NCBI GenBank assembly: GCA_019322485.1
Contig: JAHWIK010000015.1
Span: 23,216 to 87,215, forward strand
DNA from: Candidatus Woesearchaeota archaeon
Lineage (GTDB): Archaea > Nanobdellota > Nanobdellia > Woesearchaeales > JAHWIC01
DNA: 64,000 nucleotides
Direction: 5' to 3'
A program made the position numbers and the translations under genes. Positions 29,001 to 43,554 of this stretch are shown in pieces. Positions within the stretch are counted from its first letter, which is position 1, and each line of letters begins with the position of its first letter. The notes below the pieces were generated by a model. That model worked only from the letters and a program-made list of their open reading frames with translations. It was not told the DNA's origin and searched no databases.

Positions 29001-32000
29001 GTTTTGTGTGCTGTTGCAGCCAGTTGGTGAGCATGTATAGTTTTCCCGGCCAGGGCAGGCAGAATTGTTATAACAGCTGTAATCATTGCAGTCACCATCT
29101 TGCAGGTAGGTGTTTGCTCCAAAGTGGTATTGATATGATGCATTTGTCCATCCAGGGTTCTGCATCTGGCTGATGTAATAATCCTGGTCATTATCAAAAA
29201 CATCTGTACAGTTTCTTTCAATAATTAATTCACAGTTTTGTCCTGACGGGCCGATAGCTGTATCATTGCAGTCTTGGTCATATCTATAGCTGTCATAAGC
29301 AATAGCATACGGCCAGAATTGGTTTGGAGTGAGACCATATGCATAATAGATGCAGTCTATTCCGCCTGATAGGTTTTCCACTCTGTTTGAATCTAATAAA
29401 TAATCAGTTATGTTGTAGACATACCTGTCTAGGTCATTGTCAACTCCATCAGTGCACAATGATGCTGTTTCTGTTGTAGGGCATGCAGAGTCATTTGCAC
29501 AGTCATAATCATCACAATCATAGCCGCCAGAGGCGCTTGTCCTATTCCCGCCAGGATTGTATGCATTATCTAAGTCATTGTCATAACCATCTGTACAGTT
29601 TATCTCGTGGCCTAGCTCACATTTTCCAGGACCCATATCAACACCATCACAGTCTGCATCAGGGTAGTGGTTTCCATCATAGTTATATCTGCAGTCCATT
29701 CCACCGCCATACTGGTTGTTTGTTGCACTATATTGTGTTCCTGTCCAGCCGGTTATTGTATAATAATCAAGGTCATTATCCTTGTTGTCAGAACAGTTTG
29801 CTCCATCATTTTCCCAATAGTTTGTTACATTGCATGTTGATTGGCAGTCATACTCTCCATGTGCAATGTTGCTTCCACCTGCACCATATTGATAATTTGG
29901 GTTTGTTGTTGAGGCTCCTGTTGAGGTCGTATTGCAGTCAAGTTCCCCATCCTGGTCATTATCAAATCCATCTGAGCAGCTTGTTTCAAAGATTAATTGG
30001 CATGTTCCTGCTGGCAATACAGAACTATTGCAGTCTATATCATACTCTACCATCCTGCAGTCAGCTCCTGCTCCTGGCAAGCCCGAGTAAAAGTCTAGGT
30101 CATTGTCCTTTCCGTCAATGCATGTTATTCCTGACTCATTTATGGGACAGTTTGAATCATTGAAACAATCATATTCTCCATGAGGATAAGTTCCTCCACC
30201 AGAATAGGTTGACCTGGGGTTAGTTGGATTGCTTAAGTACTGGATTACCCCGCCTGTAAAGAATGCTGTTGTGTTGCAGTCAAATGCTCTGTCACGGTCA
30301 TTATCAAACAAGTCATTACATATTGTTTCTACCCCTAATTCGCATGTGCCATTGATTCCTCCAACATTATAGCTGAGCCAGCTTGAGTTTAGGATGTATG
30401 TGTTGTTGCAGTCAGTGTCCCATGTACCTGCATTATAATGGCAGTCTGTATCACCATCATCGTCATTGTCAAAGCCGTCTGTGCAGGAGTTATTTGTTGC
30501 AGCATATTTGCTTTCATTCTGGTAAGCGCATAAAGGATAGGTTCCGTCAGGGTTTGCCGATGTTGAACCAATATAAGCGTCGCAATCAATGTCAATACAG
30601 TCTGTTGTATAATCCAAGTCATTGTCATATGAGTCTGCACAAGATATATCATGTTCATCTCTTACGCCGTCATCTGAAATATTTATGTTAAATTTAAAGT
30701 CATATGCTGAACCATTAAATATCCTGTTCAAGACTAAGCCATACATTCCATAGAAGTTGTTTGTTGTATTCATCATTGCTTTTAGGACATTATCTAATGT
30801 GCTTTGGGTGTAAGGTGTTGGGTCAGAAGGAGGATTTGGGCCAGACTGGGCAATTATTGAGTTAGCACTTGTTGTTTTTCCGCTTAGACCGGTTGTTGCG
30901 GAGTAGTTTAATATCCAGAAATCACCAGGGTTTTCCTGCCATAATGATGTATTGAACTGCCACACCTTGAAATAAGCTGTATAGCCTGTTATTTGCGAGG
31001 TTTGATACAGCCTCATACTAAACAATGCTTCTGGCTGTATCTTGTATGTGTAAGTGACTGCTGTGTTCGATGCTGTTCCAGTGCATAAGTTTGGTGCGCA
31101 TGAAGCATCACAGGTTCCACCGTCTATGCATTGAAGTGACCCATCTAAATCACCTGGGTCATATGGCGGGTCATCTCTCCAGCCAGCTGCTGTTTTGTTG
31201 CAAGTCCATGCAGGAGTGCCCTGCTTGTTTGTATTAGAGCCCCCTACAATATAATATTCTCCGTAGACAATTGAAGCGCAGTCTGAATCCTCACAATCTA
31301 TTTTACCATCTCCATCATCATCTGCATTATTAGCACAGTGCGTCTCCACAACGTCAGGGGTATTCTTTTTCTTTATTGAGAAGTCAACGTCTTTTGCACC
31401 ATAATAATATGATGAGTCTGCGGGATTATAGAAAACACTTGAACAGGTGTTGTTTTCAAGGAAGTAGTTTGAGTTATCTACGCCGGCTGCACAGTTTGCT
31501 GCCCTGGTCACATAACCTACATACCATGCATAGTTGAGGGCAGCTTTACCCTCGTAGAAAGCAAGTTGCACTGTTCCGTTTAATCTTCTGCCAGATGTTA
31601 CAGGTATTGTGCATGTCCTGTGGCATTCTTCACCAACAGGGCATGTTGAATCCTCAGAGTTATTGACATTAGTCACTGTATTGCTTTGGCTTATTGTATA
31701 GGATATAGAGTAATTATTTCCTGCTGTGTTGGTAACTGTTTCTGCTCCATCTGCATAGTTCGAGTCCATGCAGGAGAAATTAGCTTTTAGGTTTTCGATT
31801 ATTCCTTCTCCGATTACTGTCAGATTTATTACTGAACCATCTTCGTAGAACACCCTTCTCCTGTAATTATTTGAGGTATCTGCCACTCTCAACAGGAAGA
31901 ATCCTACTGTTCCTGATGAGCTAGCTCCTCCTGTTATTTCTGTAATAGATGATAACTCTTTTCCATCAGGGATTATGAAGAAGTTTAGTGAACTGACAAG

Positions 32001-32063
32001 TAAGAGGATAATACAAAGTACTAATTTAATAATTTCAGATATCTTTTTTGTTTTATCTTTCAT
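26013..32063 (-). CDS. giant (2016 aa) cell-surface protein with ~14 MopE-like putative metal/Ca-binding repeats (C[ST]DGxDND[LQD]D...DC); N/T/S/D/G/Y-rich with many N-glycosylation sequons
   Basis: Uninterrupted 6051-nt ORF. N-terminal signal-anchor 'IIKLVLCIILLLVSSLNFFIIP'. Repeated motifs such as 'CTDGFDNDDDGDTDC', 'CSDGFDNDQDGELDC', 'CTDGYDNDLDN' and 'CANNADDDGDGKIDCEDSDC'. Almost no K/R/E in the mature region. Confidence 0.7.
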   Translation of the reverse strand: MKDKTKKISEIIKLVLCIILLLVSSLNFFIIPDGKELSSITEITGGASSSGTVGFFLLRVADTSNNYRRRVFYEDGSVINLTVIGEGIIENLKANFSCMDSNYADGAETVTNTAGNNYSISYTISQSNTVTNVNNSEDSTCPVGEECHRTCTIPVTSGRRLNGTVQLAFYEGKAALNYAWYVGYVTRAANCAAGVDNSNYFLENNTCSSVFYNPADSSYYYGAKDVDFSIKKKNTPDVVETHCANNADDDGDGKIDCEDSDCASIVYGEYYIVGGSNTNKQGTPAWTCNKTAAGWRDDPPYDPGDLDGSLQCIDGGTCDASCAPNLCTGTASNTAVTYTYKIQPEALFSMRLYQTSQITGYTAYFKVWQFNTSLWQENPGDFWILNYSATTGLSGKTTSANSIIAQSGPNPPSDPTPYTQSTLDNVLKAMMNTTNNFYGMYGLVLNRIFNGSAYDFKFNINISDDGVRDEHDISCADSYDNDLDYTTDCIDIDCDAYIGSTSANPDGTYPLCAYQNESKYAATNNSCTDGFDNDDDGDTDCHYNAGTWDTDCNNTYILNSSWLSYNVGGINGTCELGVETICNDLFDNDRDRAFDCNTTAFFTGGVIQYLSNPTNPRSTYSGGGTYPHGEYDCFNDSNCPINESGITCIDGKDNDLDFYSGLPGAGADCRMVEYDIDCNSSVLPAGTCQLIFETSCSDGFDNDQDGELDCNTTSTGASTTNPNYQYGAGGSNIAHGEYDCQSTCNVTNYWENDGANCSDNKDNDLDYYTITGWTGTQYSATNNQYGGGMDCRYNYDGNHYPDADCDGVDMGPGKCELGHEINCTDGYDNDLDNAYNPGGNRTSASGGYDCDDYDCANDSACPTTETASLCTDGVDNDLDRYVYNITDYLLDSNRVENLSGGIDCIYYAYGLTPNQFWPYAIAYDSYRYDQDCNDTAIGPSGQNCELIIERNCTDVFDNDQDYYISQMQNPGWTNASYQYHFGANTYLQDGDCNDYSCYNNSACPGRENYTCSPTGCNSTQNWCLDSIDNDLDNYLSDGINLSTAAGAGIDCAWNNYDSDCNNTYINDSGNIGLCTIRWEYNCSDGVDNDQDLGTYYVGESGSAHAGANTGEDCDDYNCYAVQESGLYVCTDDGSGLSIVEQTCNDTLDNDLDAYTWNGTEYETNDASGTDCGDPDCNGLLGPGDILCALFEEMYFDPFDDTLCGDYNSSGTTAYSMDNDGDNLANCYDTGCYHQGLCRVCPPEENVTLDSCMDGLNNEYEYQDEYISKTNYDPNEINASLNDGVYDCRDSDCDGIVGVWSTSQGICNSASAGTGYRTTESACTDSYDNDFDNSVDCEDSDCSSGASCLAPYTNSLAACTLKCSDAAAVSYIGGEPPDYSVNTNWGGGTPDLTYTEYHWRGKNLTFTFTDSATNVNGKTIQIYLGSASATYVPLDYEMNASNSGIYGTDSGNFNVQYSAQSGYHYQAVLIEYSGAYPNQILNLTFWITVPDNDTIVQNSSFSYYVSTSIGGVEQNADVTQYILETEPPQAPVFVKTTPADDDYTTSRLRMIKTDNTVTRLSASDTVYVRVNATDSGTWNSGVELCQFNDGTGWVNETSAYDCRYALTLSDGLNTIYARAVDGVGNIGPNTSLTIDVRTLPKQTTGFFCIDTNCSTSYPTKDYYVPTETLNVAVNFTSTYGFTANASGCVVYAEKNSPGSRISLGSVPLASTGMCNGTVSLSGLSEGYYTVEVELRDDNDTRTVSGELPWSNGNSKENIWVCDYTQTYNGYTCKDACEREEANRPSKVILKSPESGNTTTELRPTFTWYNATYNGSTTAKYEIEIDDSPIFTSLDYSRGNLSEGSNNETSHTLISDLELDKTYFWRVRAYHSIISGEWSDVWNFTLSSYIAINLTRDVVDFGVVIPGFSESTEDDSPLPLLLENVGNLIVNISINATDLFETVPNPNESYQFAIGVNESGSFTSATTTLTPMPSNSTPAIYNLNWEDASDTAEIDLNATVPLLEPSGQKNSTILVRTT

Positions 32064-32729: not shown

Positions 32730-33452
32730 TTATTCAACATAAACCTTTTCCTTTCCTAGATTCTTAAATGGAATCTCACCAAATCTGCAATTTCTGCAGG
32801 TTGCATCCAAATCAACCCAGTGGTCCATTGATTTATAGCTTTTCAGGGCATCTGGAAGATAAGCCTGGACATAAACATGCCTTGGAATGAAAACTAACCT
32901 TGTGTTTACACCAATTGCTTCTAAGAGAGTTGCTAATAGAACAGCAGCATCATCGCAGTCACCACCCTGAACAGAAAGAGATTCTTTGGCTGTCTTAACA
33001 TACTCAAACTCATTTGGGTCAGAGACATAATTGAAATTATCACGAATAAAATAATAGAGGGCTTTTGCATGGCATACGCGATTAGTAGGGCAGCCCATAA
33101 CTGAAACCCTGTCAGCAGTCTGCTTGATTAAAGGGTCTGTTGGGTCTATTAACTCCAAGAAATCGTATTTGTTGGTCACATTATGTTTTGTAAGGTTTAA
33201 TGAGAATTCTGGAACAACCTCGCTGATTGTTGGAATATAATTAGGTGCAGGATCAATCTTTATAGAATAAGAAGGAACCAGCCATAGCACAACTAATAAT
33301 AACAGAAATATTGCCATAATCCATTTTATAGGGCCTCTCCACCATGGCTCTTGCTCAATATCCTCATGAACTTCGTGTTCTTCTTCCATATTGATTGTTT
33401 TTTCTTCTATGTTTATATTGTTTTTGTTTGAGGAAAGCTTTATAAATCGCAT
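32730..33452 (-). CDS. membrane-anchored transglutaminase-like cysteine protease domain protein
   Basis: TM helix, then 'VQGGDCDDAAVLLATLLEAIGVNTRLV' (transglutaminase-core Cys motif) and downstream His/Asp. Confidence 0.55.
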   Translation of the reverse strand: MRFIKLSSNKNNINIEEKTINMEEEHEVHEDIEQEPWWRGPIKWIMAIFLLLLVVLWLVPSYSIKIDPAPNYIPTISEVVPEFSLNLTKHNVTNKYDFLELIDPTDPLIKQTADRVSVMGCPTNRVCHAKALYYFIRDNFNYVSDPNEFEYVKTAKESLSVQGGDCDDAAVLLATLLEAIGVNTRLVFIPRHVYVQAYLPDALKSYKSMDHWVDLDATCRNCRFGEIPFKNLGKEKVYVE

Positions 33453-33954: not shown

Positions 33955-33965
33955 ACCTTTATAAA
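33955..33965 (+). promoter_or_regulatory. TATA-box-like element upstream of dxs
   Basis: 'cctttataaac' ~35 nt upstream of the dxs ATG. Confidence 0.25.
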
Positions 33966-33996: not shown

Positions 33997-35889
33997 ATGG
34001 TTAAAGAGGAGTTAGATAGAAGTCACTTTCTTGATTTAGTCAGTAGTCCGAAGGATTTGAGGCTGTTGAATAAGCAGCAGTTAGATATGCTTGCTGAGGA
34101 ATTAAGAAGGCTAATAATTGAAACTGTAAGCAAGACAGGCGGCCACTTAGCGTCCAGCCTTGGTGTTATTGAATTAACTATTGCTTTGCATTATGTTTTT
34201 GACTCACCAAATGACAAGATAGTATGGGATGTTGGACATCAGGCTTATGCACATAAGCTGTTAACAGGAAGAAAAAATAAGTTCCATACCTTAAGGCAGC
34301 ACAAGGGCATAGCTGGTTTTCCAAAATCAAAGGAGAGCCCTCACGATGCCTTTGATACTGGACACAGCTCAACAGCAATATCAGCAGCTTTAGGAATAGC
34401 AGCTGCTCGCGATTTAAAGCATGAAAAAAACAAGGTGATAGCTGTTATTGGAGACGGAGCTTTAACTGGCGGAATGTCTTTTGAAGCCTTAAATCATGCT
34501 GGCTCATTAAAGAAAGACCTCATAGTAATCCTTAATGATAATGAGATGTCAATAAGCAAGAATGTAGGTGCTTTATCCTCTTATCTTTCAAAGCTGGTAT
34601 CAAAGCCTGGTTATGTCGACAGAAGAAAGAAAGTAGAAAGGATTTTAAGGGGGATACCTGGCCTGAGAAGGCAGGCTGCTAAGGTTTTTGGAATCGAGGA
34701 TACAATAAGGGCTTTAGCAGCTACAACTCCTGGCCTGATATTCAGGGAGCTTGGTTTTAGGTATTTTGGACCTGTTGATGGCCATAATATCGAGCAGATG
34801 ATAAAAACATTAGAGAACATAGAACAGCTTAAAGGTCCTATATTGCTTCATGTCATAACAAAAAAAGGGAAAGGCTATAGCTATGCAGAAGCTGACAGGA
34901 CAAGGTTTCATGGCATTGCGCCATTCAACATAGAGAATGGTGAAAAGAAGCACAAGAGCAGCGTTACATACACAACAGCATTCTCAAGATGTTTGACAAA
35001 GCTTGCAAAGCAGGACAAAAGGGTAGTTGCAATAACAGCAGCAATGAAGCCTGGAACAGGATTAGACCAGTTTGCAGGAATGTTTCCAGACAGGTTATTT
35101 GACGTCGGCATAGCAGAGCAGCATGCAGTTACATTTGCAGCTGGCTTGGCTAAGAACGGCTATAAGCCGGTATGCGCGATTTATTCTACTTTCCTGCAAA
35201 GGGCTTATGACCAGATTGTGCACGATGTTTGTTTGCAGAACCTGCCTGTTGTCTTTGCAATTGATAGAGCTGGCTTGGTCGGAGAGGACGGACCAACACA
35301 TCATGGAAGTTTTGATTTATCTTATCTGAGGCATATACCAAACATGACTGTAATGGCTCCAAAGGACGAGAATGAACTGGGGCATATGCTAAAAACAGCT
35401 TTAGAGATTGACGGGCCGGTTGCAGTAAGATACCCAAGAGGTACGGGCTTGGGGGTTGCAATACAGAACCCATACCACCCAATAGAATTAGGAAAAGCAG
35501 AAGTAATGCAGAAAGGAAAAGATTTGGCAATATTAGCAGTTGGTTCTTGCGTTGATATGGCGAATAAGGCTGCTGAGAAACTGGGGAAGAATAAAATAAA
35601 TGCAACCGTTGTTAATGTAAGGTTTGTAAAGCCTCTGGACGAGAAACTAATACTGAACCTAGCAAAGAAACACAGGAAACTGATTACTATAGAGGAGAAT
35701 GCATTAGATGGCGGTTTTGGTTCTGGTGTGCTGGAATTGTTGGAGCAGTATAACACCAAGGCAACGGTAAAAAGAATTGGAATACCTGATAAATTTGTAG
35801 AGCACGGTTCAATGTCAATCTTAAGAGAAAAAATTGGATTAACTGAGGATAATATAGTGAAGGAAGCGAAGTCGTTGATGGCAAAATGA
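33997..35889 (+). CDS. dxs: 1-deoxy-D-xylulose-5-phosphate synthase
   Basis: Signature 'GGHLASSLGVIELTIALHYVFDSPNDKIVWDVGHQAYAHKLLTGR', ThDP-binding 'GDGALTGGMSFEALNHAG', 630 aa. Confidence 0.9.
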   Translation: MVKEELDRSHFLDLVSSPKDLRLLNKQQLDMLAEELRRLIIETVSKTGGHLASSLGVIELTIALHYVFDSPNDKIVWDVGHQAYAHKLLTGRKNKFHTLRQHKGIAGFPKSKESPHDAFDTGHSSTAISAALGIAAARDLKHEKNKVIAVIGDGALTGGMSFEALNHAGSLKKDLIVILNDNEMSISKNVGALSSYLSKLVSKPGYVDRRKKVERILRGIPGLRRQAAKVFGIEDTIRALAATTPGLIFRELGFRYFGPVDGHNIEQMIKTLENIEQLKGPILLHVITKKGKGYSYAEADRTRFHGIAPFNIENGEKKHKSSVTYTTAFSRCLTKLAKQDKRVVAITAAMKPGTGLDQFAGMFPDRLFDVGIAEQHAVTFAAGLAKNGYKPVCAIYSTFLQRAYDQIVHDVCLQNLPVVFAIDRAGLVGEDGPTHHGSFDLSYLRHIPNMTVMAPKDENELGHMLKTALEIDGPVAVRYPRGTGLGVAIQNPYHPIELGKAEVMQKGKDLAILAVGSCVDMANKAAEKLGKNKINATVVNVRFVKPLDEKLILNLAKKHRKLITIEENALDGGFGSGVLELLEQYNTKATVKRIGIPDKFVEHGSMSILREKIGLTEDNIVKEAKSLMAK

Positions 35890-36923
35890 GAAGCAAAACA
35901 AAAGAAATCAGGATTGGAAAACTGAAGATTGGCGGAGATAATCCTATTGCAATACAGTCAATGACTAATACTGATACAAAAGACGAGGAAGCAACAATAA
36001 AACAGATTCATGAGCTAGAGGAGAATGGCTGCGAGATAGTTAGGGTTTCTGTTCCTGACAAGGAATCGTTGCTTTCATTAAGAGCAATAAAAGAAAACAT
36101 AAGCATTCCATTGGTTGCTGATATTCATTTTGACCATAAATTAGCTGTAGAAGCTGCAAGGATTGCAGACAAGATAAGGATTAACCCAGGAAATATTGGG
36201 AAAGAGAACCTGAAAGAGGTTGTTGATGCTGTTATGGATTCAAATATTCCGATGAGGGTGGGGATTAACCTAGGTTCTTTGGAAAAAGACATTGAGAAGA
36301 AGTTTGGCCTTACTGCATTAGGTATGGTTGAGAGCGCAATGAGGTCTGTGAAAGAGATAGAAAGGCTTGGCTTCTACAATATGGTTATTTCATTAAAGGC
36401 TTCTGATGTGTTAAAGACAATAGAAGCTTACAGATTGTTTTCACAGAGGTCACAATACCCTTTACACGTCGGTATAACCGAGTCTGGGAGCAGTTTTACA
36501 GGAACTGTTAATTCATCAGTTGGAATTGGAGCTTTATTATTGCAGGGAATTGGAGATACAATCCGCGTTTCATTATCAGCTGAGCCTGTTGAAGAGGTTA
36601 AAGTTGGCTGGCAGATTCTGAAAGCACTTAGGCTTAGGAAGAGGGGGATTGACATAACAAGCTGCCCAACGTGCGCAAGAAAAGGCATAGATGTTATCAA
36701 TATTGTCAAGGAGCTTGAGCAAAGAACCTCAAAAATGAACAAGCCTTTGCATATTGCAGTTATGGGCTGCGGTGTTAATGGTCCAGGAGAAGCTAAAGAA
36801 GCTGATATTGGTGTTGTCGGCGGAAAAGGAAATGTTTTGCTTTACAAGAATGGAATGATGGTCGGCAATATTGAGGGAGATGTTCTTGAAAGGTTGATGA
36901 AGGAGATAGAGAATTCAAAATGA
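35886..36923 (+). CDS. ispG: 4-hydroxy-3-methylbut-2-en-1-yl diphosphate synthase (GcpE/IspG)
   Basis: 'IRIGKLKIGGDNPIAIQSMTNTDTKD' N-terminal TIM-barrel signature; C-terminal [4Fe-4S] ligands 'CPTCAR...MGCGVNGPGE'; start overlaps the dxs stop. Confidence 0.9.
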   Translation: MRSKTKEIRIGKLKIGGDNPIAIQSMTNTDTKDEEATIKQIHELEENGCEIVRVSVPDKESLLSLRAIKENISIPLVADIHFDHKLAVEAARIADKIRINPGNIGKENLKEVVDAVMDSNIPMRVGINLGSLEKDIEKKFGLTALGMVESAMRSVKEIERLGFYNMVISLKASDVLKTIEAYRLFSQRSQYPLHVGITESGSSFTGTVNSSVGIGALLLQGIGDTIRVSLSAEPVEEVKVGWQILKALRLRKRGIDITSCPTCARKGIDVINIVKELEQRTSKMNKPLHIAVMGCGVNGPGEAKEADIGVVGGKGNVLLYKNGMMVGNIEGDVLERLMKEIENSK

Positions 36924-38305
36924 GCTGGAAATTAATCACATTAAAACAGTATCCGATGTTCTCGAGATGGTGGATACATGAAGCGTTTCTCCACGATATG
37001 AAAGATACTTTAGGTATGAATTTTAAAATGTACAAATCGCTCTATAGCGGGACTTATGCTGATAGTGATGAGGTTGAAAAGTTAAGGTCTATGTTAATAT
37101 CTAAACTTGAAAAAGATATTGATTCAATTAGGAAATTATGTGAGAATTGGAAACATGATTGTGATGAGCTTATTAGATTTACAAAAGAATTAGAAAAATC
37201 GGACTTCTCAAAAAACTCTGATGAGGAATTAGTTAATTTATCAGAGAATTGCATTAAAAAATTAAGAAGAAGCGCTTCATATATTTATCTGTCAGTTGTT
37301 TTGGATGAATATTTTCAGAATTGGCTGAATAAAATACTTGAAGCTAAGGTTCAGGACCAGAATGAGAGGACAAAATACTTCCAAATTCTTACATCTCCAA
37401 CAAAAAATACTAAATTAATTGACGCTAAGAAGGTATTAATTGAGATTTCTAAAGTTGTTAAAGAGAAAGGTCTTGAGGGAGCAGAGGACTTAATCAAAGA
37501 TTATGTATCTAAATTTAAATGGCTTGGATATGATACTGGAATTGGAAGTGATTTAACTATAGAACAAACAAAGGATAAGATTTCTAATATTCTTGAGCAA
37601 AAACAGCACGACTCTGATGTTAAAAATAGGGATGAGGTCTTGTCTGAGTTGGATCTCAATGAAAAAGATAAAGAATTACTTGACTTGATGGACGAACTTA
37701 TTTTCCTAAGGACTTATAGGGCTGAAAGCAATATGGTTGCAGGAGCTGATATAAGGCCTATTCTTGAAGAACTTGCAAAAAGAGCCAATACAAATTATGA
37801 TAATCTAGTTCAATTAACCATTGATGAAATAAAAGACTCAATAAAGTCAAAAAAAGTAGACTTGAAGAAGATTGAGGAGAGAAAGAATAAGTATGGCTTG
37901 TTAATGGTCGATGGAAAGAATACAATCTACAGTGGAGATGAAGTGGATAAAGTAGAGGAAAAGGTTGAAGTTCCTGAAGGATTGACAGAGTTAAAAGGAT
38001 TAGTAGCACACCATGGAAATAAGAGGGGCCATGTTAAGATTGTTTTGAGGCATAAAGACTTTGATAAGATTGAATTTGGAGATATTTTGGTAACAAAGAT
38101 GACTAATCCTGATTTTATAGTTGTTTTAGAACAGTGTTCTGGAATAATTACAGACATTGGAGGGATAACCTCTCATGCAGCGATTGTTGCACGAGAACTA
38201 AACAAGCCATGCATTACAGGAACTCAATATGCTACAAAAGTCTTGAAAGATGGTGACTTAGTTGAGCTTGATACAGATAAAGGCATTGTAAAGATAATAA
38301 AATGA
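36920..38305 (+). CDS. PEP-utilising-enzyme mobile (phosphohistidine swivel) domain protein with a ~340-aa helical N-terminal region of unknown function
   Basis: C-terminal 'GIITDIGGITSHAAIVARELNKPCITGT' is the PpsA/PPDK/rifampin-phosphotransferase His-domain signature. There is no ATP-grasp or PEP-binding TIM-barrel domain. Start and stop overlap ispG and ispDF by 4 nt each. Confidence 0.6.
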   Translation: MSWKLITLKQYPMFSRWWIHEAFLHDMKDTLGMNFKMYKSLYSGTYADSDEVEKLRSMLISKLEKDIDSIRKLCENWKHDCDELIRFTKELEKSDFSKNSDEELVNLSENCIKKLRRSASYIYLSVVLDEYFQNWLNKILEAKVQDQNERTKYFQILTSPTKNTKLIDAKKVLIEISKVVKEKGLEGAEDLIKDYVSKFKWLGYDTGIGSDLTIEQTKDKISNILEQKQHDSDVKNRDEVLSELDLNEKDKELLDLMDELIFLRTYRAESNMVAGADIRPILEELAKRANTNYDNLVQLTIDEIKDSIKSKKVDLKKIEERKNKYGLLMVDGKNTIYSGDEVDKVEEKVEVPEGLTELKGLVAHHGNKRGHVKIVLRHKDFDKIEFGDILVTKMTNPDFIVVLEQCSGIITDIGGITSHAAIVARELNKPCITGTQYATKVLKDGDLVELDTDKGIVKIIK

Positions 38306-39453
38306 ACATAGCAATCATAACAGCAGCTGGAAAAGGAACAAGGATGAATGAAAAAGTCAATAAAATATTGTTATCTTTAGTCGATAAATCAATAATTGAA
38401 GAAACAATCGAGGTTTTTGAGGCGTGTAAAGATATTGATGAGATAATTATTGTTGGAAACAGCGATGATATTGAATCATTAAACAAAATCAATGAAAAAA
38501 ATAATTATAAAAAAATTAAAAAAATCATTGAAGGCGGAGAACAACGGCAGGATTCAGTGTTTAATGGAATAAAATCCATTGAAAATGCGAGTAATGATGA
38601 TATTTTATTGATTCATAATGGTGCAAACCCCCTTGTAGACGAGAAAACGATTCTTGAATGTATTAAAGAAGCAAAGGAGCATGGGGCAGCTGTTGCTGCA
38701 ATGCCTGCAAAAGATACAATAAAACAGGTTGAGAATGGTTTTGTTGCTAAAACATTGGATAGAAAGCAGCTCTGGCAGATGCAGACACCGCAAACAATCC
38801 AGTTTGGGCTTGCGAAAGAGGCTTTTGAAAAGGCATTTGCTGATAATTTCTATGGAACTGATGATGTTGGGCTTGTAGAAAGGCTTGGAAAAAAGGTTAA
38901 GATTGTTGAGTGCAATACTGAGAACGTAAAAATCACAACAAAGAATGATTTAGAACAAGCAAGACTCTTGCTTAATGCTTCTGTTGTTGGAATCGGACAG
39001 GATTCCCACAAATTTACCGACGAGAAAAAGGATTTAGTTTTGGGTGGTGTAGTAATTCCAAATGAGCAGGGCTTAGAAGCAAACTCTGATGGTGATGTCA
39101 TCCTGCATGCCTTGTTTAATGCTTTAAGCCAGGCAGCTGGAGAAAAATCATTGGGAAATTATGCAGATTCAATGTGTGAGAATGGAATAAAAGACAGCAG
39201 AGAGTATCTAAGAGTGATTTTAGACATAATCAACAAGAAAAATTACAAGATAAATAATGTTGGCTTTATGATAGAAGCAAAAAAGCCAAGGCTAGGGGCT
39301 AATGAAGACAGAATAAAAGAGAATATTGCAAATTTATTGGGAATAACTAAAGATAAAGTTGGAATAACAGCAACCTCAGGAGAGGAATTAACTCCATTTG
39401 GCCAGGGCAAGGCAATACAGGTATTTTCAGTTGCAAGCTTAACAAGAAAATAA
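38302..39453 (+). CDS. ispDF: bifunctional IspD/IspF (MEP cytidylyltransferase / MEcPP synthase)
   Basis: N-terminal 'MNIAIITAAGKGTRM' (IspD); C-terminal 'GIGQDSHKFTD' and 'SDGDVILHALFNALSQAAG' (IspF metal/CDP-binding motifs). Confidence 0.9.
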   Translation: MNIAIITAAGKGTRMNEKVNKILLSLVDKSIIEETIEVFEACKDIDEIIIVGNSDDIESLNKINEKNNYKKIKKIIEGGEQRQDSVFNGIKSIENASNDDILLIHNGANPLVDEKTILECIKEAKEHGAAVAAMPAKDTIKQVENGFVAKTLDRKQLWQMQTPQTIQFGLAKEAFEKAFADNFYGTDDVGLVERLGKKVKIVECNTENVKITTKNDLEQARLLLNASVVGIGQDSHKFTDEKKDLVLGGVVIPNEQGLEANSDGDVILHALFNALSQAAGEKSLGNYADSMCENGIKDSREYLRVILDIINKKNYKINNVGFMIEAKKPRLGANEDRIKENIANLLGITKDKVGITATSGEELTPFGQGKAIQVFSVASLTRK

Positions 39454-39474
39454 TGAAAATCAAAGATTTTCAGT

Positions 39475-40344
39475 ATGTCAAAAACCAAGGTTTTTAACAT
39501 GATCCAGCTAAAAGCACACGCAAAGATAAACCTGACCTTAGATGTACTTGCAAGGCTGGATGACGGCTATCATCGGATAGAATCTATAAAACAGCAGGTT
39601 GGTTTGCACGATAAAATCTCATTAGGGCCATTGGATGATATAAAGGTAATCTGCAGCCATCCTAACATAACCACAAAAGAAAATCTTGTCTTTAAAACAG
39701 CATTGTTGCTAAAAAATGAATTTAATGTAGCAGAGGGAGCGAAGATAACAATAGAAAAAAATATTCCATTAGCTGCTGGCTTGGCTGGAGGCTCATCAGA
39801 CGCAGCAGCAACCCTGGTAGGATTAAACAAGCTTTGGAAACTTGAGCTTGATGAGCAGGAACTGACAAAATTAGCTGCAGAGATTGGAATGGATGTTCCT
39901 TTTTCTGTTGTTGGCGGTTCTTGTTTTGCAGAGGGCAAAGGCACTAAACTAAGCAGGATAGAGCTGCCTGAGATGCATGTGCTGTTAATCAACCCTGGTT
40001 TTGAAGTCTCTACAAGAACAGCTTACCAAAGCCTTGACTTGTCAAGAACAGGAAAGGCAATGGCAACAAAGAAACTATTGGAAGTAAGGAACATGGGTGT
40101 GAGAGAAATATCAAAGGTCATGCATAATGACTTTGAAGCTGTGGTGCTGGGGAAGCATTCTATTCTGAAAGAGATAAAGGGCAAATTAATGGAGAATAAT
40201 GCCTTGAATGCAATAGTATCTGGCTCAGGGCCAACTGTTTTTGGCTTGTTTGAGGATGAATCAACTATAAGCAAGGCTTACGAATCTCTTAAAGAAACTT
40301 ATCCATTTGTATTCATGACAAAAACAGTAGCGAGGAAAGAATGA
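39475..40344 (+). CDS. ispE: 4-diphosphocytidyl-2-C-methyl-D-erythritol kinase (GHMP kinase)
   Basis: 'AHAKINLTLDV' and GHMP motif 'PLAAGLAGGSSDAAATLVGLNKLW'. Confidence 0.85.
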   Translation: MSKTKVFNMIQLKAHAKINLTLDVLARLDDGYHRIESIKQQVGLHDKISLGPLDDIKVICSHPNITTKENLVFKTALLLKNEFNVAEGAKITIEKNIPLAAGLAGGSSDAAATLVGLNKLWKLELDEQELTKLAAEIGMDVPFSVVGGSCFAEGKGTKLSRIELPEMHVLLINPGFEVSTRTAYQSLDLSRTGKAMATKKLLEVRNMGVREISKVMHNDFEAVVLGKHSILKEIKGKLMENNALNAIVSGSGPTVFGLFEDESTISKAYESLKETYPFVFMTKTVARKE

Positions 40345-41153
40345 GAATTAAAAAAGCAAAGCACTCTGGATTTTGTTTTGGTGTTAAGAGGGCAGTAGAG
40401 TCAGCGCTGGGCACAGAGGGGGAAGTAAAGACATTAGGCCCATTAATACATAATCCTCAGTTTATAGCAGAGCTTGAGAAAAAGGGAATAAAATCTGTTG
40501 ATTCTGTCGATGAGGTTGAAAAAGGCTCTTTGATAATAAGGGCGCATGGTGTCCCGGATTCTGTTATAGAAAAGGCCAGGGGAAAAGGGCTTAATGTAAC
40601 TGATTTAACATGTCCTTTTGTCAGGAAGGTGCATGATTATGCTAAGGAATTCTACAAACAAGGCTATAGTGTGGTTGTGGTTGGAGAGAAAAACCATCCT
40701 GAGGTTGTAGGAATAATTGGCAACATTGATGGTATTGTTGTGGGCAATGCAGATGATGCAAGGAAACTTGGCAGGTTCGAAAAGATTGGAGTGGTTGCAC
40801 AAACAACACAATCACTTGAGAACTTTAACAATGTTGTTGATGAGCTGAAAAAGCATACAGATGAGTTAAAGGTACATAATACCATATGCTCTGAAACAGA
40901 TTCAAGGCAGAAACACGCTATTGAGCTGGCAAAAGAGGTTGACTTGATGATAGTTATTGGGGGGAGAAACTCTGGAAATACCAGAAGGCTTGCCCAGCTT
41001 TGCTCTAAATTAACTGAAACAAAGCATATTGAGTCTGAGGATGAGTTAAAGGAGGGGTGGTTTGCAGGCAAGGGTTGTGTTGGGATAACAGCTGGCGCTT
41101 CAACACCGGACAGCACAATCAAGAAGATTGAGGATAGAATCAGGGAGATATGA
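40341..41153 (+). CDS. ispH: 4-hydroxy-3-methylbut-2-enyl diphosphate reductase (LytB/IspH)
   Basis: 'HSGFCFGVKRAVE', 'LTCPFVRKVH', 'ICSETDSRQ' and 'VIGGRNSGNTRRL' LytB motifs. Confidence 0.85.
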   Translation: MRIKKAKHSGFCFGVKRAVESALGTEGEVKTLGPLIHNPQFIAELEKKGIKSVDSVDEVEKGSLIIRAHGVPDSVIEKARGKGLNVTDLTCPFVRKVHDYAKEFYKQGYSVVVVGEKNHPEVVGIIGNIDGIVVGNADDARKLGRFEKIGVVAQTTQSLENFNNVVDELKKHTDELKVHNTICSETDSRQKHAIELAKEVDLMIVIGGRNSGNTRRLAQLCSKLTETKHIESEDELKEGWFAGKGCVGITAGASTPDSTIKKIEDRIREI

Positions 41154-41157
41154 GATT

Positions 41158-42246
41158 ATGGAATTCATACAAGCAGTAGGGCAATACAAGGGAATAGTCA
41201 ATAAGACTTTAAGCACGTTCTTTGATAATCATATCAATAAAACACAGGATGGCTTTCTAAAATTTAATTATTCTACACTTAGGGATTATGTTTTGCGGGA
41301 CGGCAAGAGATTAAGGCCAATCACACTGATAATGGCTTACAAGTCAATAACTGATAATGATGAGCAGAAGATTTACATGCCTTCTTTGAGTATGGAACTG
41401 TTCCATGCTTCCTCATTAATACATGATGATATAATGGATGAGGATGATTTAAGGAGGGGAAAAGAGAGCATGCATACCCTGTTTAACCAGTGGTTTGTTG
41501 ATAATCACGGCCAGGCAGGCTATAATGGGCCTATATTTAACCAGTTATCTACTAAGTTTGGGGTTTCTATGGCAATACTGCAGGGAAATATACTGATTGC
41601 TTTAGGTGAGTCCTGCTTGTCAGGCTCCTCATTTGCCCCGGAACAGATAAAGGCTGCTTTAATGGTGTGCAATAACACAAACAAGGTAGTTAATGAAGGC
41701 CAGATACAGGACATTGTTCTGGAGACAAAGAGGGAGTTTACTGAAAATGATTATTTGAGTATGATTGCTAAGAAAACAGGCAAATTATTCAGCACATCTC
41801 TTGAGATAGGTGCAGTATTTGCAGGTGCAACAGATTCTCAGAGAAAAGCGCTTGATAATTATGCATTATCTGCAGCAACAACATTCCAGATACAGGACGA
41901 TATAATGGACATAAGCCCTGATATGAAAAAGGGGCATGAGGTTGGCTCTGATATAAAGCAGGGAAAAAGAACCTTGCTTGTTATGAAGGCCCTGGAAAAA
42001 GGGGATGAAGGCCAAAAAAAGGTTTTGTTTGATGCTCTTGGCAATGAGAAAGCAACACCAGAAGAAATAGAGATTGCTATCGATGTTATGCACGCTACAG
42101 GGGCAGTTGATTATGCAAAGAATCTTGCAGCTGATATGATTAAGAAAGGAAAGGATGCGCTTAAGGAAGCAGACCCTGCTTTATCTTCTGATGGATTGAA
42201 GTTCTTTAATGATTTAGCAGATTATATGGTAAATAGAAATGTCTAG
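41158..42246 (+). CDS. idsA: trans-polyprenyl diphosphate synthase (probable GGPP synthase); start moved to the Met after the ispH stop
   Basis: FARM 'LIHDDIMDEDDLRRGKES' and SARM 'FQIQDDIMD'; last gene of the MEP cluster. Confidence 0.8.
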   Translation: MEFIQAVGQYKGIVNKTLSTFFDNHINKTQDGFLKFNYSTLRDYVLRDGKRLRPITLIMAYKSITDNDEQKIYMPSLSMELFHASSLIHDDIMDEDDLRRGKESMHTLFNQWFVDNHGQAGYNGPIFNQLSTKFGVSMAILQGNILIALGESCLSGSSFAPEQIKAALMVCNNTNKVVNEGQIQDIVLETKREFTENDYLSMIAKKTGKLFSTSLEIGAVFAGATDSQRKALDNYALSAATTFQIQDDIMDISPDMKKGHEVGSDIKQGKRTLLVMKALEKGDEGQKKVLFDALGNEKATPEEIEIAIDVMHATGAVDYAKNLAADMIKKGKDALKEADPALSSDGLKFFNDLADYMVNRNV

Positions 42247-42764
42247 GATTTGATTAGTTTCTCTAGCTTGTCCCAATTGTCTGCTGAGTTTTCTTCGCAG
42301 TTATAGGTTGCCAGCTTGACTCCTTGAGGTATGACCTTGACTTTGTATGCATGAGCTCCTTTAGAGTTTACTTTCTCATTTCTTATGCTTTTTTTAATCT
42401 CTTCAGAGCAGGCAAAGCCAATAACTCCTCTTGGCTTGTGTTTCTTTATAATCCTCTTCATGAAGTTAAGAGAAGGAACAACAAAGAATTTAGAGCCAAG
42501 GCCTTCGCTTAATTTTCTTATGTCCCCTATCTTACACAGTCCGCAGCTGATGCACTTAACCCCTTCTAATGAATCAAGCCTTGCAGGACATTTAGGATTT
42601 CTTAAGCAGTGAGGCAGAAAAACGGCTCTTTCATTCTTAGGTATTTTCCTGAAGTCTTCCTCATAATATTTGTTGATAGCATCTAGGATATCATGTTTTA
42701 TTCCTAATAGCTTTCTAAGTGGATATAACGATACTGTCAGGAAGAATTTCACTTTTTTATTCAT
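42243..42764 (-). CDS. Cys-rich protein, possibly DUF116-like (173 aa)
   Basis: Conserved cysteines 'LPHCLRNPKCPARL...CISCGLCKIG...GFAC'; convergent with the GGPP synthase gene. Confidence 0.3.
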   Translation of the reverse strand: MNKKVKFFLTVSLYPLRKLLGIKHDILDAINKYYEEDFRKIPKNERAVFLPHCLRNPKCPARLDSLEGVKCISCGLCKIGDIRKLSEGLGSKFFVVPSLNFMKRIIKKHKPRGVIGFACSEEIKKSIRNEKVNSKGAHAYKVKVIPQGVKLATYNCEENSADNWDKLEKLIKS

Positions 42765-42788: not shown

Positions 42789-43244
42789 TTATTCTAACAA
42801 CATTCTTGCTCTTGATGGATCATATTTCCACTCAGAGGATAATTTTCCAGTTCTCTTGTAGTACTTTACAAGCCTGTTTATCTTTGACGAGGTTAACAAC
42901 AAGCCTCTTTTTGCAGTTGAGTCTCTTGTGTTTGCCTCAAGATGCTTGTGTATCTTAACTGCCCTCCTTATGAGGCTTTGCAGGTCCTCAGGCATAGCTG
43001 GCAGAATTTTCTTTTCTTTTAGAATCTGCGTAATGTCCTTTTTTGTTAACAGCTTAACATTAGGAACACCGTAAGTATCTCTTAGTGAAATGCCTATCTG
43101 GGAAGGTGTTTTGCCTTCTTTTGCCAGCCTTACAATCAATAATTCTATTTCCTTTCCTTTGTACCTTGTCCATGTGGGTGTTGTTGTCTGTAATGGTTTT
43201 TTGCTTTTAGCTTTACCTTTCCTTCTTGAATACATTCTTGCCAT
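42789..43244 (-). CDS. rps15: 30S ribosomal protein S15P/S13e
   Basis: 151 aa; 'MARMYSRRKGKAKSKKP...' N-terminal extension and the C-terminal S15 fold motif 'RDSTAKRGLLLTSSKINRLVKYYK'. Confidence 0.85.
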   Translation of the reverse strand: MARMYSRRKGKAKSKKPLQTTTPTWTRYKGKEIELLIVRLAKEGKTPSQIGISLRDTYGVPNVKLLTKKDITQILKEKKILPAMPEDLQSLIRRAVKIHKHLEANTRDSTAKRGLLLTSSKINRLVKYYKRTGKLSSEWKYDPSRARMLLE

Positions 43245-43382: not shown

Positions 43383-43554
43383 GAAATAATCAATAGCCCC
43401 GGGCAGATTCGAACTGCCGTCCCCGGCTGTTTTCGATGGAAATCGCAAAACTGTTGGAAATCTTTGATTTCCACCACCAAAAGCAGGGATGATTTGTCGG
43501 AAATCGGAGATTTCTGAGCAAATTGAAAATCTCCGATTTTCAATTGACCACTAC
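43383..43554 (-). tRNA. tRNA-like gene (acceptor AGCCCCG/CGGGGCU-A, canonical D-loop start, canonical T-arm GGCAG-UUCGAAU-CUGCC) interrupted by ~100 nt of structured insert; isotype unresolved (5' end resembles archaeal tRNA-Gln)
   Basis: Hand reverse-complement gives a 7-bp acceptor stem, 'UAGUGUAGUGGUC' D-region and a perfect T-arm. The 99 nt in between contain long hairpins with recurring GAAAUC/GAUUUC motifs. A contiguous anticodon arm could not be placed. Confidence 0.4.

What the first reader, a model, noticed from the sequence alone, without database searches (positions are those of the whole stretch)
33997..42246. Bacterial-type MEP (non-mevalonate) isoprenoid operon in an archaeal genomic context
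dxs, ispG, ispDF (fused), ispE, ispH and a GGPP-synthase-like prenyltransferase form one tightly packed plus-strand operon, with start/stop overlaps at four of the six gene junctions. The flanking genes are unambiguously archaeal (S15P/S13e, parvulin, tRNAs with archaeal-type introns, S24e/S27ae/P0 elsewhere). Archaea canonically make IPP via the mevalonate pathway, so this looks like horizontal acquisition of the MEP route, probably feeding GGPP for ether-lipid synthesis. The AT-rich composition of the operon looks the same as its surroundings, which argues against a chimeric assembly.
Basis: partly seen in the sequence, partly recalled or inferred. Interest (0 to 1): 0.7.

Follow-up and report, generated by a model that had tools for sequence, protein, structure and literature searches.

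The report
Known bacterial-type isoprenoid operon in Woesearchaeota
A tiny DPANN archaeon (Woesearchaeota) really does carry a bacterial-style MEP isoprenoid operon inside a normal archaeal chromosome, but this has already been published for this clade; the only new detail is an unrelated kinase-component gene sitting where the dxr gene used to be.

Summary
Window 33997-42246 (+) is a compact operon in a Candidatus Woesearchaeota MAG (locus-tag prefix KY360).

- **Not chimeric.** Both flanks are archaeal, composition is uniform, and a distant Woesearchaeon (L098) is syntenic on both sides. An independent assembly reproduces 3.7 kb at 100% identity.
- **Already published.** Castelle & Banfield 2018, Castelle 2021 and Huang 2021 describe the MEP pathway in Woesearchaeota, including the fused ispDF, a bacterial origin, and the sister MAG Yap2000.bin4.8.
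- **dxr.** It is absent from the window. It very probably lies on another contig of the same MAG, beside bacterial-type gpsA and archaeal uS2.
- **Gene order.** Outgroups have ispG-dxr-ispDF and sister genomes have ispG-ispDF. Here the slot holds the 461-aa gene.
- **The extra gene.** It is the substrate-binding plus phospho-histidine swivel component of a split rifampin-phosphotransferase/HpeH-like dikinase. Its homologues pair with a stand-alone ATP-grasp gene and are never in MEP operons.

The ether-lipid destination is not supported. Interest is low.

The parts
33958..33965 (+). TTTATAAA, a candidate archaeal TATA-like element about 35 nt upstream of the dxs ATG. It follows a T-rich tract after the stop of the upstream gene.
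   Evidence: Read directly from the sequence. This is inference only; no archaeal promoter model was run.
33997..35889 (+). [quoted passage not shown]
   Evidence: TIGR00204 scores 881.6 bits against a cut-off of 466, and PF13292, PF02779 and PF02780 all match. It is 81% identical to the Yap2000.bin4.8 protein.
35886..36923 (+). ispG (gcpE), HMBPP synthase (345 aa). It overlaps dxs by 4 nt.
   Evidence: NF001540 scores 461.8 bits against a cut-off of 345. Cys260, Cys263 and Cys295 are present. It is 86% identical to L004 and L092.
36920..38305 (+). gene 3 (MBW2980312.1, KY360_02750; 461 aa). It is the RPH/HpeH-like substrate-binding helical domain plus the phospho-histidine swivel domain of a split small-molecule dikinase. 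It has ATGA overlaps at both ends and lies in the slot that holds dxr in outgroup Woesearchaeota.
   Evidence: PF00391 matches residues 386-455. The AF2 model has pLDDT 92.3. The top Foldseek hits are rifampin phosphotransferase 5FBU/5FBT/5HV1, with E = 4e-15 and TMq up to 0.64. His419 is invariant within the TDIGGITSH motif. The gene is absent from L004 and L092, and dxr occupies the slot in L094 and L098. Homologues sit next to a stand-alone PPDK_N gene.
38302..39453 (+). fused ispDF, MEP cytidylyltransferase plus MEcPP synthase (383 aa)
   Evidence: TIGR00453 scores 216.5 against 181.3 and TIGR00151 scores 151.8 against 116.5. The fusion is described for Woesearchaeota subgroup J in PMC8421398.
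39475..40344 (+). ispE, CDP-ME kinase (289 aa)
   Evidence: TIGR00154 scores 241 bits against a cut-off of 138.7.
40341..41153 (+). ispH (lytB), HMBPP reductase (270 aa)
   Evidence: TIGR00216 scores 280.6 bits against a cut-off of 187.9. Cys12, Cys91 and Cys183 are present.
41158..42246 (+). idsA-like archaeal-type short-chain trans-prenyl diphosphate synthase (362 aa from ATG 41158; the ORF opens at TTG 41128)
   Evidence: PF00348 matches at E = 4e-55. The closest solved structures are the archaeal GGPPS 5JFQ and 1WY0. FARM (DDIMD) and SARM (DDIMD) are present, residue -5 before FARM is Ser, and there is a 22-aa insertion after FARM. NCBIfam equivalog cut-offs are not reached.
42243..42764 (-). 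DUF116 gene. It converges on idsA and overlaps its 3' end by 4 nt. This is flank, not pathway.
   Evidence: PF01976 matches at E = 5.9e-33.
42789..43244 (-). archaeal ribosomal protein S15P/S13e, a flank marker
   Evidence: NF006331 scores 200.8 bits against a cut-off of 154, and the PF08069 N-terminal domain is present. It is syntenic in L098.
32730..33452 (-). transglutaminase-like gene, the conserved left flank
   Evidence: PF01841 matches. It is 84% identical and in the same position in L004, and 51% identical in L098.

Best explanation
This is an authentic, chromosomally resident, bacterial-derived MEP (non-mevalonate) isoprenoid operon of a DPANN archaeon, a Candidatus Woesearchaeota MAG with locus-tag prefix KY360.

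**Pathway.** The operon encodes Dxs, IspG, IspD-IspF (fused), IspE and IspH. The seventh activity, Dxr, is very probably supplied from another contig of the same genome. Together these convert pyruvate plus glyceraldehyde-3-phosphate into IPP and DMAPP. The last gene is an archaeal-type prenyl-diphosphate synthase that condenses them into a short- or medium-chain prenyl diphosphate.

**Expression.** The genes are co-directional, and four junctions are 4-nt stop/start overlaps. They are therefore most likely transcribed as one unit and translationally coupled. This step is inferred.

**History.** The operon was acquired from bacteria before this Woesearchaeal clade diversified. It has since stayed at the same chromosomal site, between a transglutaminase-like gene and S15P-dph5-FtsZ-nitroreductase-ligase. 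In the lineage of this MAG and its sisters, dxr left the ispG/ispDF slot for a locus next to gpsA and plsC-like genes.

**The extra gene.** In this MAG alone, the vacated slot holds a 461-aa gene. It encodes the substrate-binding and phospho-histidine swivel component of a two-component RPH/HpeH-like ATP-dependent dikinase. It most likely phosphorylates an unknown hydroxylated small molecule, working with a separately encoded ATP-grasp subunit. It is most likely a hitch-hiking insertion, not a MEP enzyme.
For: - **Gene identities and catalytic residues:**
- **Organism:** names it as a Woesearchaeota archaeon, KY360_02750.
- **Archaeal markers on both flanks:**
- **Uniform composition:**
- **Synteny in three independent assemblies:**
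  - L004 (Yap2000.bin4.8): TGase-dxs-ispG-ispDF at 79-86% aa identity.
  - L092.
  - L098 (GCA_964609455.1): TGase...dxs-ispG-dxr-ispDF-ispE-ispH...S15P...dph5-FtsZ-nitroreductase-ligase at 44-87% aa identity.
- **Independent assembly:** the Logan contig L096 is 100% identical to window 38034-41765 and spans the gene3/ispDF junction.
- **dxr elsewhere in the genome:**
  - Yap2000.bin4.8 encodes dxr as gene _00748.
  - Its 86% homologue P0123 is MBW2979868.1, 444 accession numbers before gene 3 (MBW2980312.1, about the 550th gene by locus tag).
  - P0123 is found in the same sequencing run, SRR14699980, as L096.
  - The dxr locus is gpsA-DUF212-dxr-archaeal uS2.
- **Gene 3 is a clean indel:** DNA alignments of L004 and L092 stop at window 36914 and resume at 38305.
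- **Gene 3 fold and motif:**
- **Homologues pair with stand-alone PPDK_N and lie outside MEP operons:**
- **Characterised two-component analogues:** HpeHI, CreHI and PpsAB, PMC12167813.
- **Literature on MEP in Woesearchaeota:** PMC8204110 and PMC8421398.
Against: - dxr is not in the window. Assigning it to the same MAG rests on accession-number arithmetic and a shared sequencing run, not on reading the assembly.
- No ATP-grasp (PPDK_N) partner for gene 3 is detectable in the 64 kb. The attempt to find one elsewhere in the MAG was swamped by Patescibacteria proteins. Gene 3 may therefore be an orphan.
- The perfect ATGA coupling of gene 3 at both ends, in exactly the former dxr slot, is more orderly than a random insertion would suggest. 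This leaves room for a functional link to the pathway.
- Transcription, enzyme activity and the product chain length of the prenyltransferase are all inferred.
- Reductant partners for IspG and IspH were not examined.
Confidence: 0.88

Rival explanations
1. Gene 3 is functionally tied to isoprenoid metabolism. As a dikinase component co-translated with the MEP enzymes, it would phosphorylate a pathway-related alcohol. Examples are salvage of 1-deoxyxylulose, methylerythritol, isoprenol/prenol or a polyprenol. Alternatively it would regulate a pathway enzyme by phosphotransfer.
For: - It is embedded with 4-nt overlaps on both sides between ispG and ispDF, exactly where dxr lay ancestrally.
- The ORF is intact and keeps every family-invariant residue, including His419.
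- The related HpeH component alone can catalyse phosphotransfer between small molecules (PMC12167813).
- Polyprenyl-phosphate handling genes (PAP2 and DUF368) occur in the same window.
Against: - The two closest operons (L004, L092) lack it entirely.
- None of the nine homologue contexts examined contains an isoprenoid gene. Five of them hold a stand-alone PPDK_N gene next to it or close by, and two carry a second paralogue.
- No ATP-grasp partner is found in the window.
- There is no substrate evidence.
Confidence: 0.1
2. Gene 3 is a non-orthologous replacement of Dxr, or it enables a Dxr bypass. The operon would then be a self-sufficient, novel MEP variant.
For: It occupies the positional slot of dxr, and dxr is absent from the 64-kb window.
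Against: - A canonical dxr, 86% identical to the sister genome's, is very probably encoded in the same MAG.
- Sister genomes have an empty slot plus a relocated dxr.
- Gene 3 has a phosphotransfer fold with no NAD(P)H-binding or reductoisomerase features.
Confidence: 0.02
3. The operon's archaeal context is an assembly or binning artefact, with bacterial DNA joined to archaeal DNA.
For: The sequence is a metagenome-assembled genome. The MEP genes are bacterial-like.
Against: - Archaeal genes lie within 25-550 nt of the operon's end, and DUF116 overlaps idsA.
- There is no compositional break.
- The same two-sided synteny appears in independent MAGs and assemblies from other samples.
- An independent contig is 100% identical.
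- 52 Woesearchaeota genomes are reported with the pathway (PMC8204110).
Confidence: 0.01
4. The pathway is a decaying relic and is not functional in this reduced-genome symbiont.
For: - dxr is unlinked.
- Published analyses find no GGGPS or DGGGPS in the subgroup.
- DPANN archaea commonly scavenge lipids. This last point is my own knowledge.
Against: - All six MEP ORFs are full length, score above the equivalog cut-offs and retain their catalytic residues.
- The operon is more compact than in its relatives.
- Operon order is conserved across 44-87% aa divergence, which implies purifying selection.
Confidence: 0.04

Closest known systems
MEP operons of Woesearchaeota subgroup J and the 52-genome Woesearchaeota clade (Castelle & Banfield 2018 as cited in PMC8204110 and PMC8421398; Castelle et al. 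2021, PMC8204110; Huang et al. 2021, PMC8421398). The closest genome is Yap2000.bin4.8.
   Same: - The same co-located dxs, ispG, fused ispDF, ispE and ispH genes.
- The same chromosomal neighbourhood.
- 79-86% aa identity to Yap2000.bin4.8.
- Bacterial (Firmicutes-like) affinities.
- dxr encoded next to bacterial-type glycerol-3-phosphate dehydrogenase and acyltransferases.
   Different: - This MAG has an extra RPH/HpeH-like gene between ispG and ispDF.
- dxs and ispG overlap by 4 nt instead of being separated by a spacer of about 450 nt.
- An archaeal-type prenyltransferase plus DUF116 lie at the 3' end, where the outgroup L098 has a geranylgeranyl-reductase-like gene.
Bacterial MEP pathway gene clusters, for example the Firmicutes dxr-(rseP)-ispG neighbourhood
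   Same: The enzymes are orthologous and score above NCBIfam equivalog cut-offs. dxr and ispG are linked in the Firmicutes loci and in outgroup Woesearchaeota.
   Different: - In bacteria the MEP genes are usually dispersed. This statement is from my own knowledge.
- Here six activities form one operon together with an archaeal-type prenyltransferase, in an archaeal genome, and dxr is unlinked.
Two-component small-molecule dikinases HpeHI, CreHI and PpsAB, and the single-chain rifampin phosphotransferase RPH (PMC12167813; PMC4844700)
   Same: - Gene 3 has the RPH substrate-binding helical domain plus the C-terminal His swivel domain (Foldseek E = 4e-15, TMq 0.64).
- It carries the T/SxxGGxxxH motif as TDIGGITSH.
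- Its homologues are encoded beside a stand-alone ATP-grasp subunit, as HpeH is beside HpeI.
   Different: - It is only about 15-17% identical to RPH.
- It keeps the PEP-synthase-like Thr two residues before the His, where HpeH and RPH have Met.
- No ATP-grasp partner is nearby.
- The substrate is unknown.
- It occurs in DPANN and CPR genomes rather than in aromatic-degrading bacteria.
Archaeal type-I geranylgeranyl diphosphate synthases (Geoglobus acetivorans 5JFQ, Pyrococcus horikoshii 1WY0; NCBIfam IdsA_Meth and GGPP_syn)
   Same: These are the best sequence matches among solved structures (E = 5.5e-48 and 7.2e-44). Both DDxxD motifs are conserved.
   Different: - It scores below the equivalog cut-offs (207 against 468, and 197 against 500).
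- A 22-residue insertion follows the first Asp-rich motif.
- Ser replaces the aromatic residue at position -5, so the product length is uncertain.

Membership tests
MEP (non-mevalonate) pathway gene set | Dxs present | tested here: met
   TIGR00204 scores 881.6 bits against a cut-off of 466.
MEP (non-mevalonate) pathway gene set | Dxr (IspC) present | tested here: inconclusive
   Dxr is not in the 64-kb window (tblastn; positive control). A canonical Dxr, MBW2979868.1, very probably belongs to the same MAG. This rests on accession arithmetic and a shared sequencing run. The assembly itself could not be read.
MEP (non-mevalonate) pathway gene set | IspD, IspE and IspF present | tested here: met
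   TIGR00453 scores 216.5 against 181.3, TIGR00154 scores 241 against 138.7, and TIGR00151 scores 151.8 against 116.5.
MEP (non-mevalonate) pathway gene set | IspG and IspH present with their [4Fe-4S] cysteine ligands | tested here: met
   NF001540 scores 461.8 against 345 and TIGR00216 scores 280.6 against 187.9. IspG has Cys260/263/295 and IspH has Cys12/91/183.
MEP (non-mevalonate) pathway gene set | Pathway is active and produces IPP and DMAPP | not testable with these tools
   This needs expression data or complementation experiments.
Published Woesearchaeota MEP clade (subgroup J) | Woesearchaeal genome, fused ispDF and co-located MEP genes | tested here: met
   The NCBI name is Candidatus Woesearchaeota archaeon. 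The fused IspD+YgbB architecture is confirmed. The nearest genome is Yap2000.bin4.8 at 79-86% identity. The clade features are described in PMC8421398.
Two-component RPH/HpeH-like small-molecule dikinase (H component) | C-terminal swivel domain with a conserved catalytic His in a T/SxxGGxxxH motif | tested here: met
   PF00391 matches at E = 4.8e-26. The motif is TDIGGITSH, and His419 is invariant in 52 homologues. The motif definition comes from PMC12167813.
Two-component RPH/HpeH-like small-molecule dikinase (H component) | RIF-binding-like helical substrate domain N-terminal to the swivel domain | tested here: met
   The AF2 model has pLDDT 92.3. Foldseek matches RPH-Lm 5FBU across the whole length, with E = 4e-15 and TMq 0.64.
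Two-component RPH/HpeH-like small-molecule dikinase (H component) | Cognate stand-alone ATP-grasp (PPDK_N) subunit encoded alongside | tested here: not met
   No PPDK_N homologue is found in the window. The feature is met in the homologues' loci L002, L003, L084-86 and L088. The rest of the MAG could not be searched.
Two-component RPH/HpeH-like small-molecule dikinase (H component) | ATP-dependent phosphorylation of a small-molecule hydroxyl group | not testable with these tools
   This needs biochemistry.
Archaeal type-I GGPP synthase | Two Asp-rich motifs (FARM and SARM) in a trans-prenyltransferase fold | tested here: met
   PF00348 matches at E = 4e-55. DDIMD is present twice.
Archaeal type-I GGPP synthase | Score above the equivalog cut-off, and an aromatic residue at position -5 before FARM that limits the product to C20 | tested here: not met
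   NF040698 scores 207 against 468 and NF041003 scores 197 against 500. Ser aligns with the Phe of 5JFQ. The chain-length rule is from my own knowledge.

The most novel reading that the evidence does not exclude
The RPH/HpeH-like dikinase component is precisely translationally coupled into the former dxr slot. It may have been recruited into isoprenoid metabolism in this lineage. One possibility is a salvage or activation kinase for a pathway alcohol (deoxyxylulose, methylerythritol, C5 isoprenols or polyprenols). Another is a phosphotransfer regulator of MEP flux. Either would give the first physiological role for the very abundant split dikinases of DPANN archaea and CPR bacteria.
Probability: 0.1. 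Interest if true: 0.55.

Novelty: already known. Interest (0 to 1): 0.22.

Why it matters
The main finding is that an archaeon uses the bacterial MEP route instead of mevalonate. This bears on the 'lipid divide' and on gene flow between bacteria and DPANN archaea. It has, however, been in the literature since 2018 and has been analysed for the sister genome of this very MAG. This locus therefore adds confirmation rather than discovery.

What this analysis adds is a locus-level history. The operon has been stably resident at one chromosomal site across deep Woesearchaeal divergence. dxr then moved to a locus of bacterial-type phospholipid genes. Finally, a split-dikinase component was inserted into the vacated slot.

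The history cautions against reading 'dxr missing from the operon' as a pathway gap. It also flags a large, uncharacterised family of two-component dikinases in DPANN archaea and CPR bacteria that is worth biochemical attention.

Tried and rejected
1. **Gene 3 as a Dxr substitute.** Rejected. A canonical dxr exists in the sister genome and very probably in this MAG. Gene 3 has a phosphotransfer fold.
2. **A conserved link between gene 3 and MEP.** Rejected. None of the nine homologue contexts examined contains MEP genes.
3. **Finding gene 3's ATP-grasp partner elsewhere in the MAG.** The profile search was swamped by Patescibacteria proteins and gave no answer.
4. **Exact look-up of gene 3 in the contig index.** It is not on record.
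5. **Supplementary Table 4 of Castelle 2021.** The terms searched were not found in the text held for it.
6. **tRNA searches.** Rfam at gathering score, and at E-value threshold around 43.3-43.6 kb, gave no tRNA call. Only ARAGORN in intron mode did.
7. **The metagenome scan with IspDF.** It returned only three loci, but these were informative.
8. **Chimerism.** Rejected on composition, synteny and an independent assembly.

Full report
**What is in the window**

The span 33997-42246 holds seven co-directional ORFs on the plus strand.

| Gene | Coordinates | Evidence |
|---|---|---|
| dxs | 33997-35889 | TIGR00204, 881.6 bits vs cut-off 466 |
| ispG | 35886-36923 | NF001540, 461.8 vs 345 |
| gene 3 | 36920-38305 | only Pfam hit is the PEP-utilizers mobile (phospho-histidine) domain, residues 386-455 |
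| ispDF | 38302-39453 | TIGR00453, 216.5 vs 181; TIGR00151, 151.8 vs 116 |
| ispE | 39475-40344 | TIGR00154, 241 vs 139 |
| ispH | 40341-41153 | TIGR00216, 280.6 vs 188 |
| polyprenyl synthase | 41128/41158-42246 | PF00348, E = 4e-55 |

The [4Fe-4S] cysteines of IspG and IspH and the signature motifs of Dxs, IspD, IspE and IspF are intact.

Four junctions are ATGA-type 4-nt overlaps: dxs/ispG, ispG/gene3, gene3/ispDF and ispE/ispH. The ispDF/ispE junction has a 21-nt gap. The prenyltransferase most plausibly starts at ATG 41158, 4 nt after the ispH stop.

**Organism and context**

Gene 3 is identical to NCBI MBW2980312.1 (locus tag KY360_02750), from a Candidatus Woesearchaeota archaeon on a 92.6-kb contig. 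Archaeal or eukaryote-type markers lie on both sides of the operon:

- S15P/S13e, 543 nt downstream
- dph5 and FtsZ
- RpoE/Rpb7, S24e, S27ae, P0 and L1
- the archaeal CCA-adding enzyme, ATP-dependent DNA ligase and an archaeal helicase domain

Default ARAGORN and Rfam find no tRNA. ARAGORN in intron mode predicts tRNA-Lys with an 83-nt intron and tRNA-Pro with a 28-nt intron.

**The contig is not chimeric**

- Tetranucleotide correlation with the whole window is 0.94-0.975 across the operon. The only outlier in the window is a 2016-aa repetitive ORF at 26-32 kb.
- The closest genome in GTDB is Woesearchaeota Yap2000.bin4.8 (L004). It has the same TGase-dxs-ispG-ispDF order at 79-86% aa identity.
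- A more distant Woesearchaeon (L098, GCA_964609455.1) is syntenic on both flanks at 44-87% aa identity. Its order is TGase ... dxs-ispG-dxr-ispDF-ispE-ispH ... S15P ... dph5-FtsZ-nitroreductase-DNA ligase.
- An independent Logan assembly of run SRR14699980 (L096) is 100% identical to window 38034-41765.

The operon is therefore an old resident of this chromosomal site in Woesearchaeota.

**Where dxr is**

tblastn with E. coli Dxr finds nothing in the 64 kb. The same query detects dxr in many Firmicutes loci. Huang et al. 2021 list dxr in Yap2000.bin4.8 as gene _00748, near bcd _00742.

Searching with that protein gives P0123, which is 86% identical. It is NCBI MBW2979868.1, from a Woesearchaeota archaeon on a 187-kb contig. 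This accession is 444 numbers before gene 3, and gene 3's locus tag makes it about the 550th gene. P0123 also occurs in the same run, SRR14699980. I infer, with roughly 0.9 confidence, that dxr is on another contig of the same MAG.

Its neighbourhood in L095 is bacterial-type GpsA, DUF212, dxr and archaeal uS2. In L097, a relative whose Dxr is 85% identical to that of Yap2000.bin4.8, the neighbourhood extends to KR, Bcd, EtfBA and two PlsC-like acyltransferases. This matches the published remark that the MEP genes lie near bacterial lipid genes.

**History of the slot between ispG and ispDF**

- The outgroups L094 and L098-L100 have ispG-dxr-ispDF.
- The sisters L004 and L092 have ispG directly abutting ispDF.
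- In the window the slot holds gene 3. DNA alignments of L004 and L092 stop at 36914 and resume at 38305, so the difference is a clean 1.39-kb indel of exactly one ORF.

The most parsimonious order of events is that dxr relocated in the common ancestor of the window, L004 and L092. Gene 3 was then inserted in the window's lineage only.

**What gene 3 is**

By sequence, only the last 120-170 residues or so match solved proteins. These are PEP synthase at E = 7e-25 and Listeria rifampin phosphotransferase (RPH) residues 698-866. An AlphaFold2 model built from 52 homologues is confident (pLDDT 92.3, pTM 0.89). Its best structural matches over the whole length are RPH-Lm 5FBU, 5FBT and 5HV1 (E = 4e-15, TMq up to 0.64). 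Gene 3 therefore corresponds to the RIF-binding helical domain plus the His swivel domain. It has no ATP-grasp domain.

The motif TDIGGITSH fits the T/SxxGGxxxH signature, and His419 is invariant. This architecture matches the 'H' component of the two-component dikinases HpeHI, CreHI and PpsAB (PMC12167813).

Homologues are abundant in DPANN archaea and CPR bacteria. Nine of them were checked for context:

| Homologue | Identity to gene 3 | Context |
|---|---|---|
| P0003 | 67% | archaeal contig with pantoate kinase; stand-alone PPDK_N (ATP-grasp) gene immediately downstream |
| P0006 | 59% | stand-alone PPDK_N immediately downstream, a second paralogue upstream, and bacterial RecO two genes downstream |
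| P0011 | 45% | Saccharimonadales; stand-alone PPDK_N adjacent |
| P0016, P0017 | 42-43% | fused to PPDK_N |
| P0002, P0004, P0007, P0008 | 46-66% | no MEP genes |

No context contains MEP genes. No PPDK_N homologue is present in the window. A search meant to find one elsewhere in the MAG was uninformative.

**The prenyltransferase**

Its closest solved relatives are the archaeal GGPP synthases 5JFQ and 1WY0, and both DDxxD motifs are present. It falls below the NCBIfam equivalog cut-offs. It has a 22-residue insertion after the first motif. It has Ser where archaeal GGPPS have the chain-length-limiting aromatic residue (the rule is my own knowledge). 'GGPPS-like' is fair, but the product length is open. 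The operon is thus a mosaic of bacterial-derived MEP genes, a DPANN/CPR-type dikinase component and an archaeal-type prenyltransferase.

**Comparison with the literature**

- Castelle et al. 2021 (PMC8204110) report the MEP pathway in a monophyletic clade of 52 Woesearchaeota genomes. The genes are co-located and lie near bacterial G3P dehydrogenase and fatty-acid genes. They cite Castelle & Banfield 2018 for the first report.
- Huang et al. 2021 (PMC8421398) describe the pathway in subgroups F and J, including Yap2000.bin4.8. They report the fused ispDF and Firmicutes-like dxr and ispG. They also report the absence of GGGP and DGGGP synthases.

The suggested ether-lipid destination is not supported by what is published for the closest relatives.

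**Verdict**

The novelty class is 'already known'. The locus-specific twist is a split-dikinase component translationally coupled into the former dxr slot. It is most likely a hitch-hiking insertion. A functional link to isoprenoid metabolism cannot be excluded (about 0.1) and would be moderately interesting.

Noticed in passing
window 15432-17414 (-), 13532-13936 (+), 13939-14160 (+): Ribosomal stalk protein P0 is 660 aa. It has a normal L10P/P0 core followed by a Lys/Glu/Pro-rich low-complexity tail of about 380 aa. S24e and S27ae also carry shorter KEAPKE-like tails. This region shows the strongest AT and GC skew in the window.
   Followed up: partly
window 26013-32063 (-), with 24835-26016 (-) and 22870-24288 (-): A 2016-aa ORF has no Pfam hit and is the only strong tetranucleotide outlier (correlation 0.63). 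It lies next to a protein with a WxL-interacting-protein host-binding-like domain and a lipase-like alpha/beta hydrolase. This may be a giant surface or adhesion protein cluster of an episymbiont.
   Followed up: no
window 4116-6555 (-): A PAP2 phosphatase, a VCA0040/DUF368 undecaprenyl-phosphate-translocase-like protein and a sugar-nucleotidyltransferase lie in a row. They look like polyprenyl-phosphate carrier recycling genes. They suggest one sink for the isoprenoids other than membrane ether lipids.
   Followed up: no
window c[43394,43565] and c[52584,52701]: Candidate tRNA-Lys(UUU) with an 83-nt intron and tRNA-Pro with a 28-nt intron, both at non-canonical positions. ARAGORN finds them only in intron mode. 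Rfam and default ARAGORN miss them. A clear T-arm sequence is visible at about 43394-43420.
   Followed up: partly
L095 1-4578 and L097 1-11011: The dxr locus of this clade runs: short-chain dehydrogenase, Bcd, EtfB, EtfA, two PlsC-like acyltransferases, bacterial-type GpsA, DUF212, dxr, archaeal uS2. A second block of bacterial-type lipid genes is thus embedded next to an archaeal ribosomal protein gene.
   Followed up: partly
L098 13902-15047 (-) versus window 41158-42764: In the outgroup Woesearchaeon, a geranylgeranyl-reductase-family gene follows ispH on the opposite strand. In the window that position holds the idsA-like prenyltransferase plus a DUF116 gene.
   Followed up: no
L004 9552-10000 and L092 198-646: The sister genomes have a non-coding spacer of about 450 nt between dxs and ispG. 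In L004, the only copy read, it contains GC-rich hairpins. In the window these two genes overlap by 4 nt.
   Followed up: no
L084, L002, L088 and the protein hits: Stand-alone PPDK_N (ATP-grasp) proteins of about 311 aa, paired with one or two swivel-domain proteins of about 460-500 aa, are extremely abundant in Patescibacteria and DPANN. In one search, 7991 of 8000 scored candidates had E <= 1e-20. This is an apparently uncharacterised branch of the two-component dikinases.
   Followed up: partly
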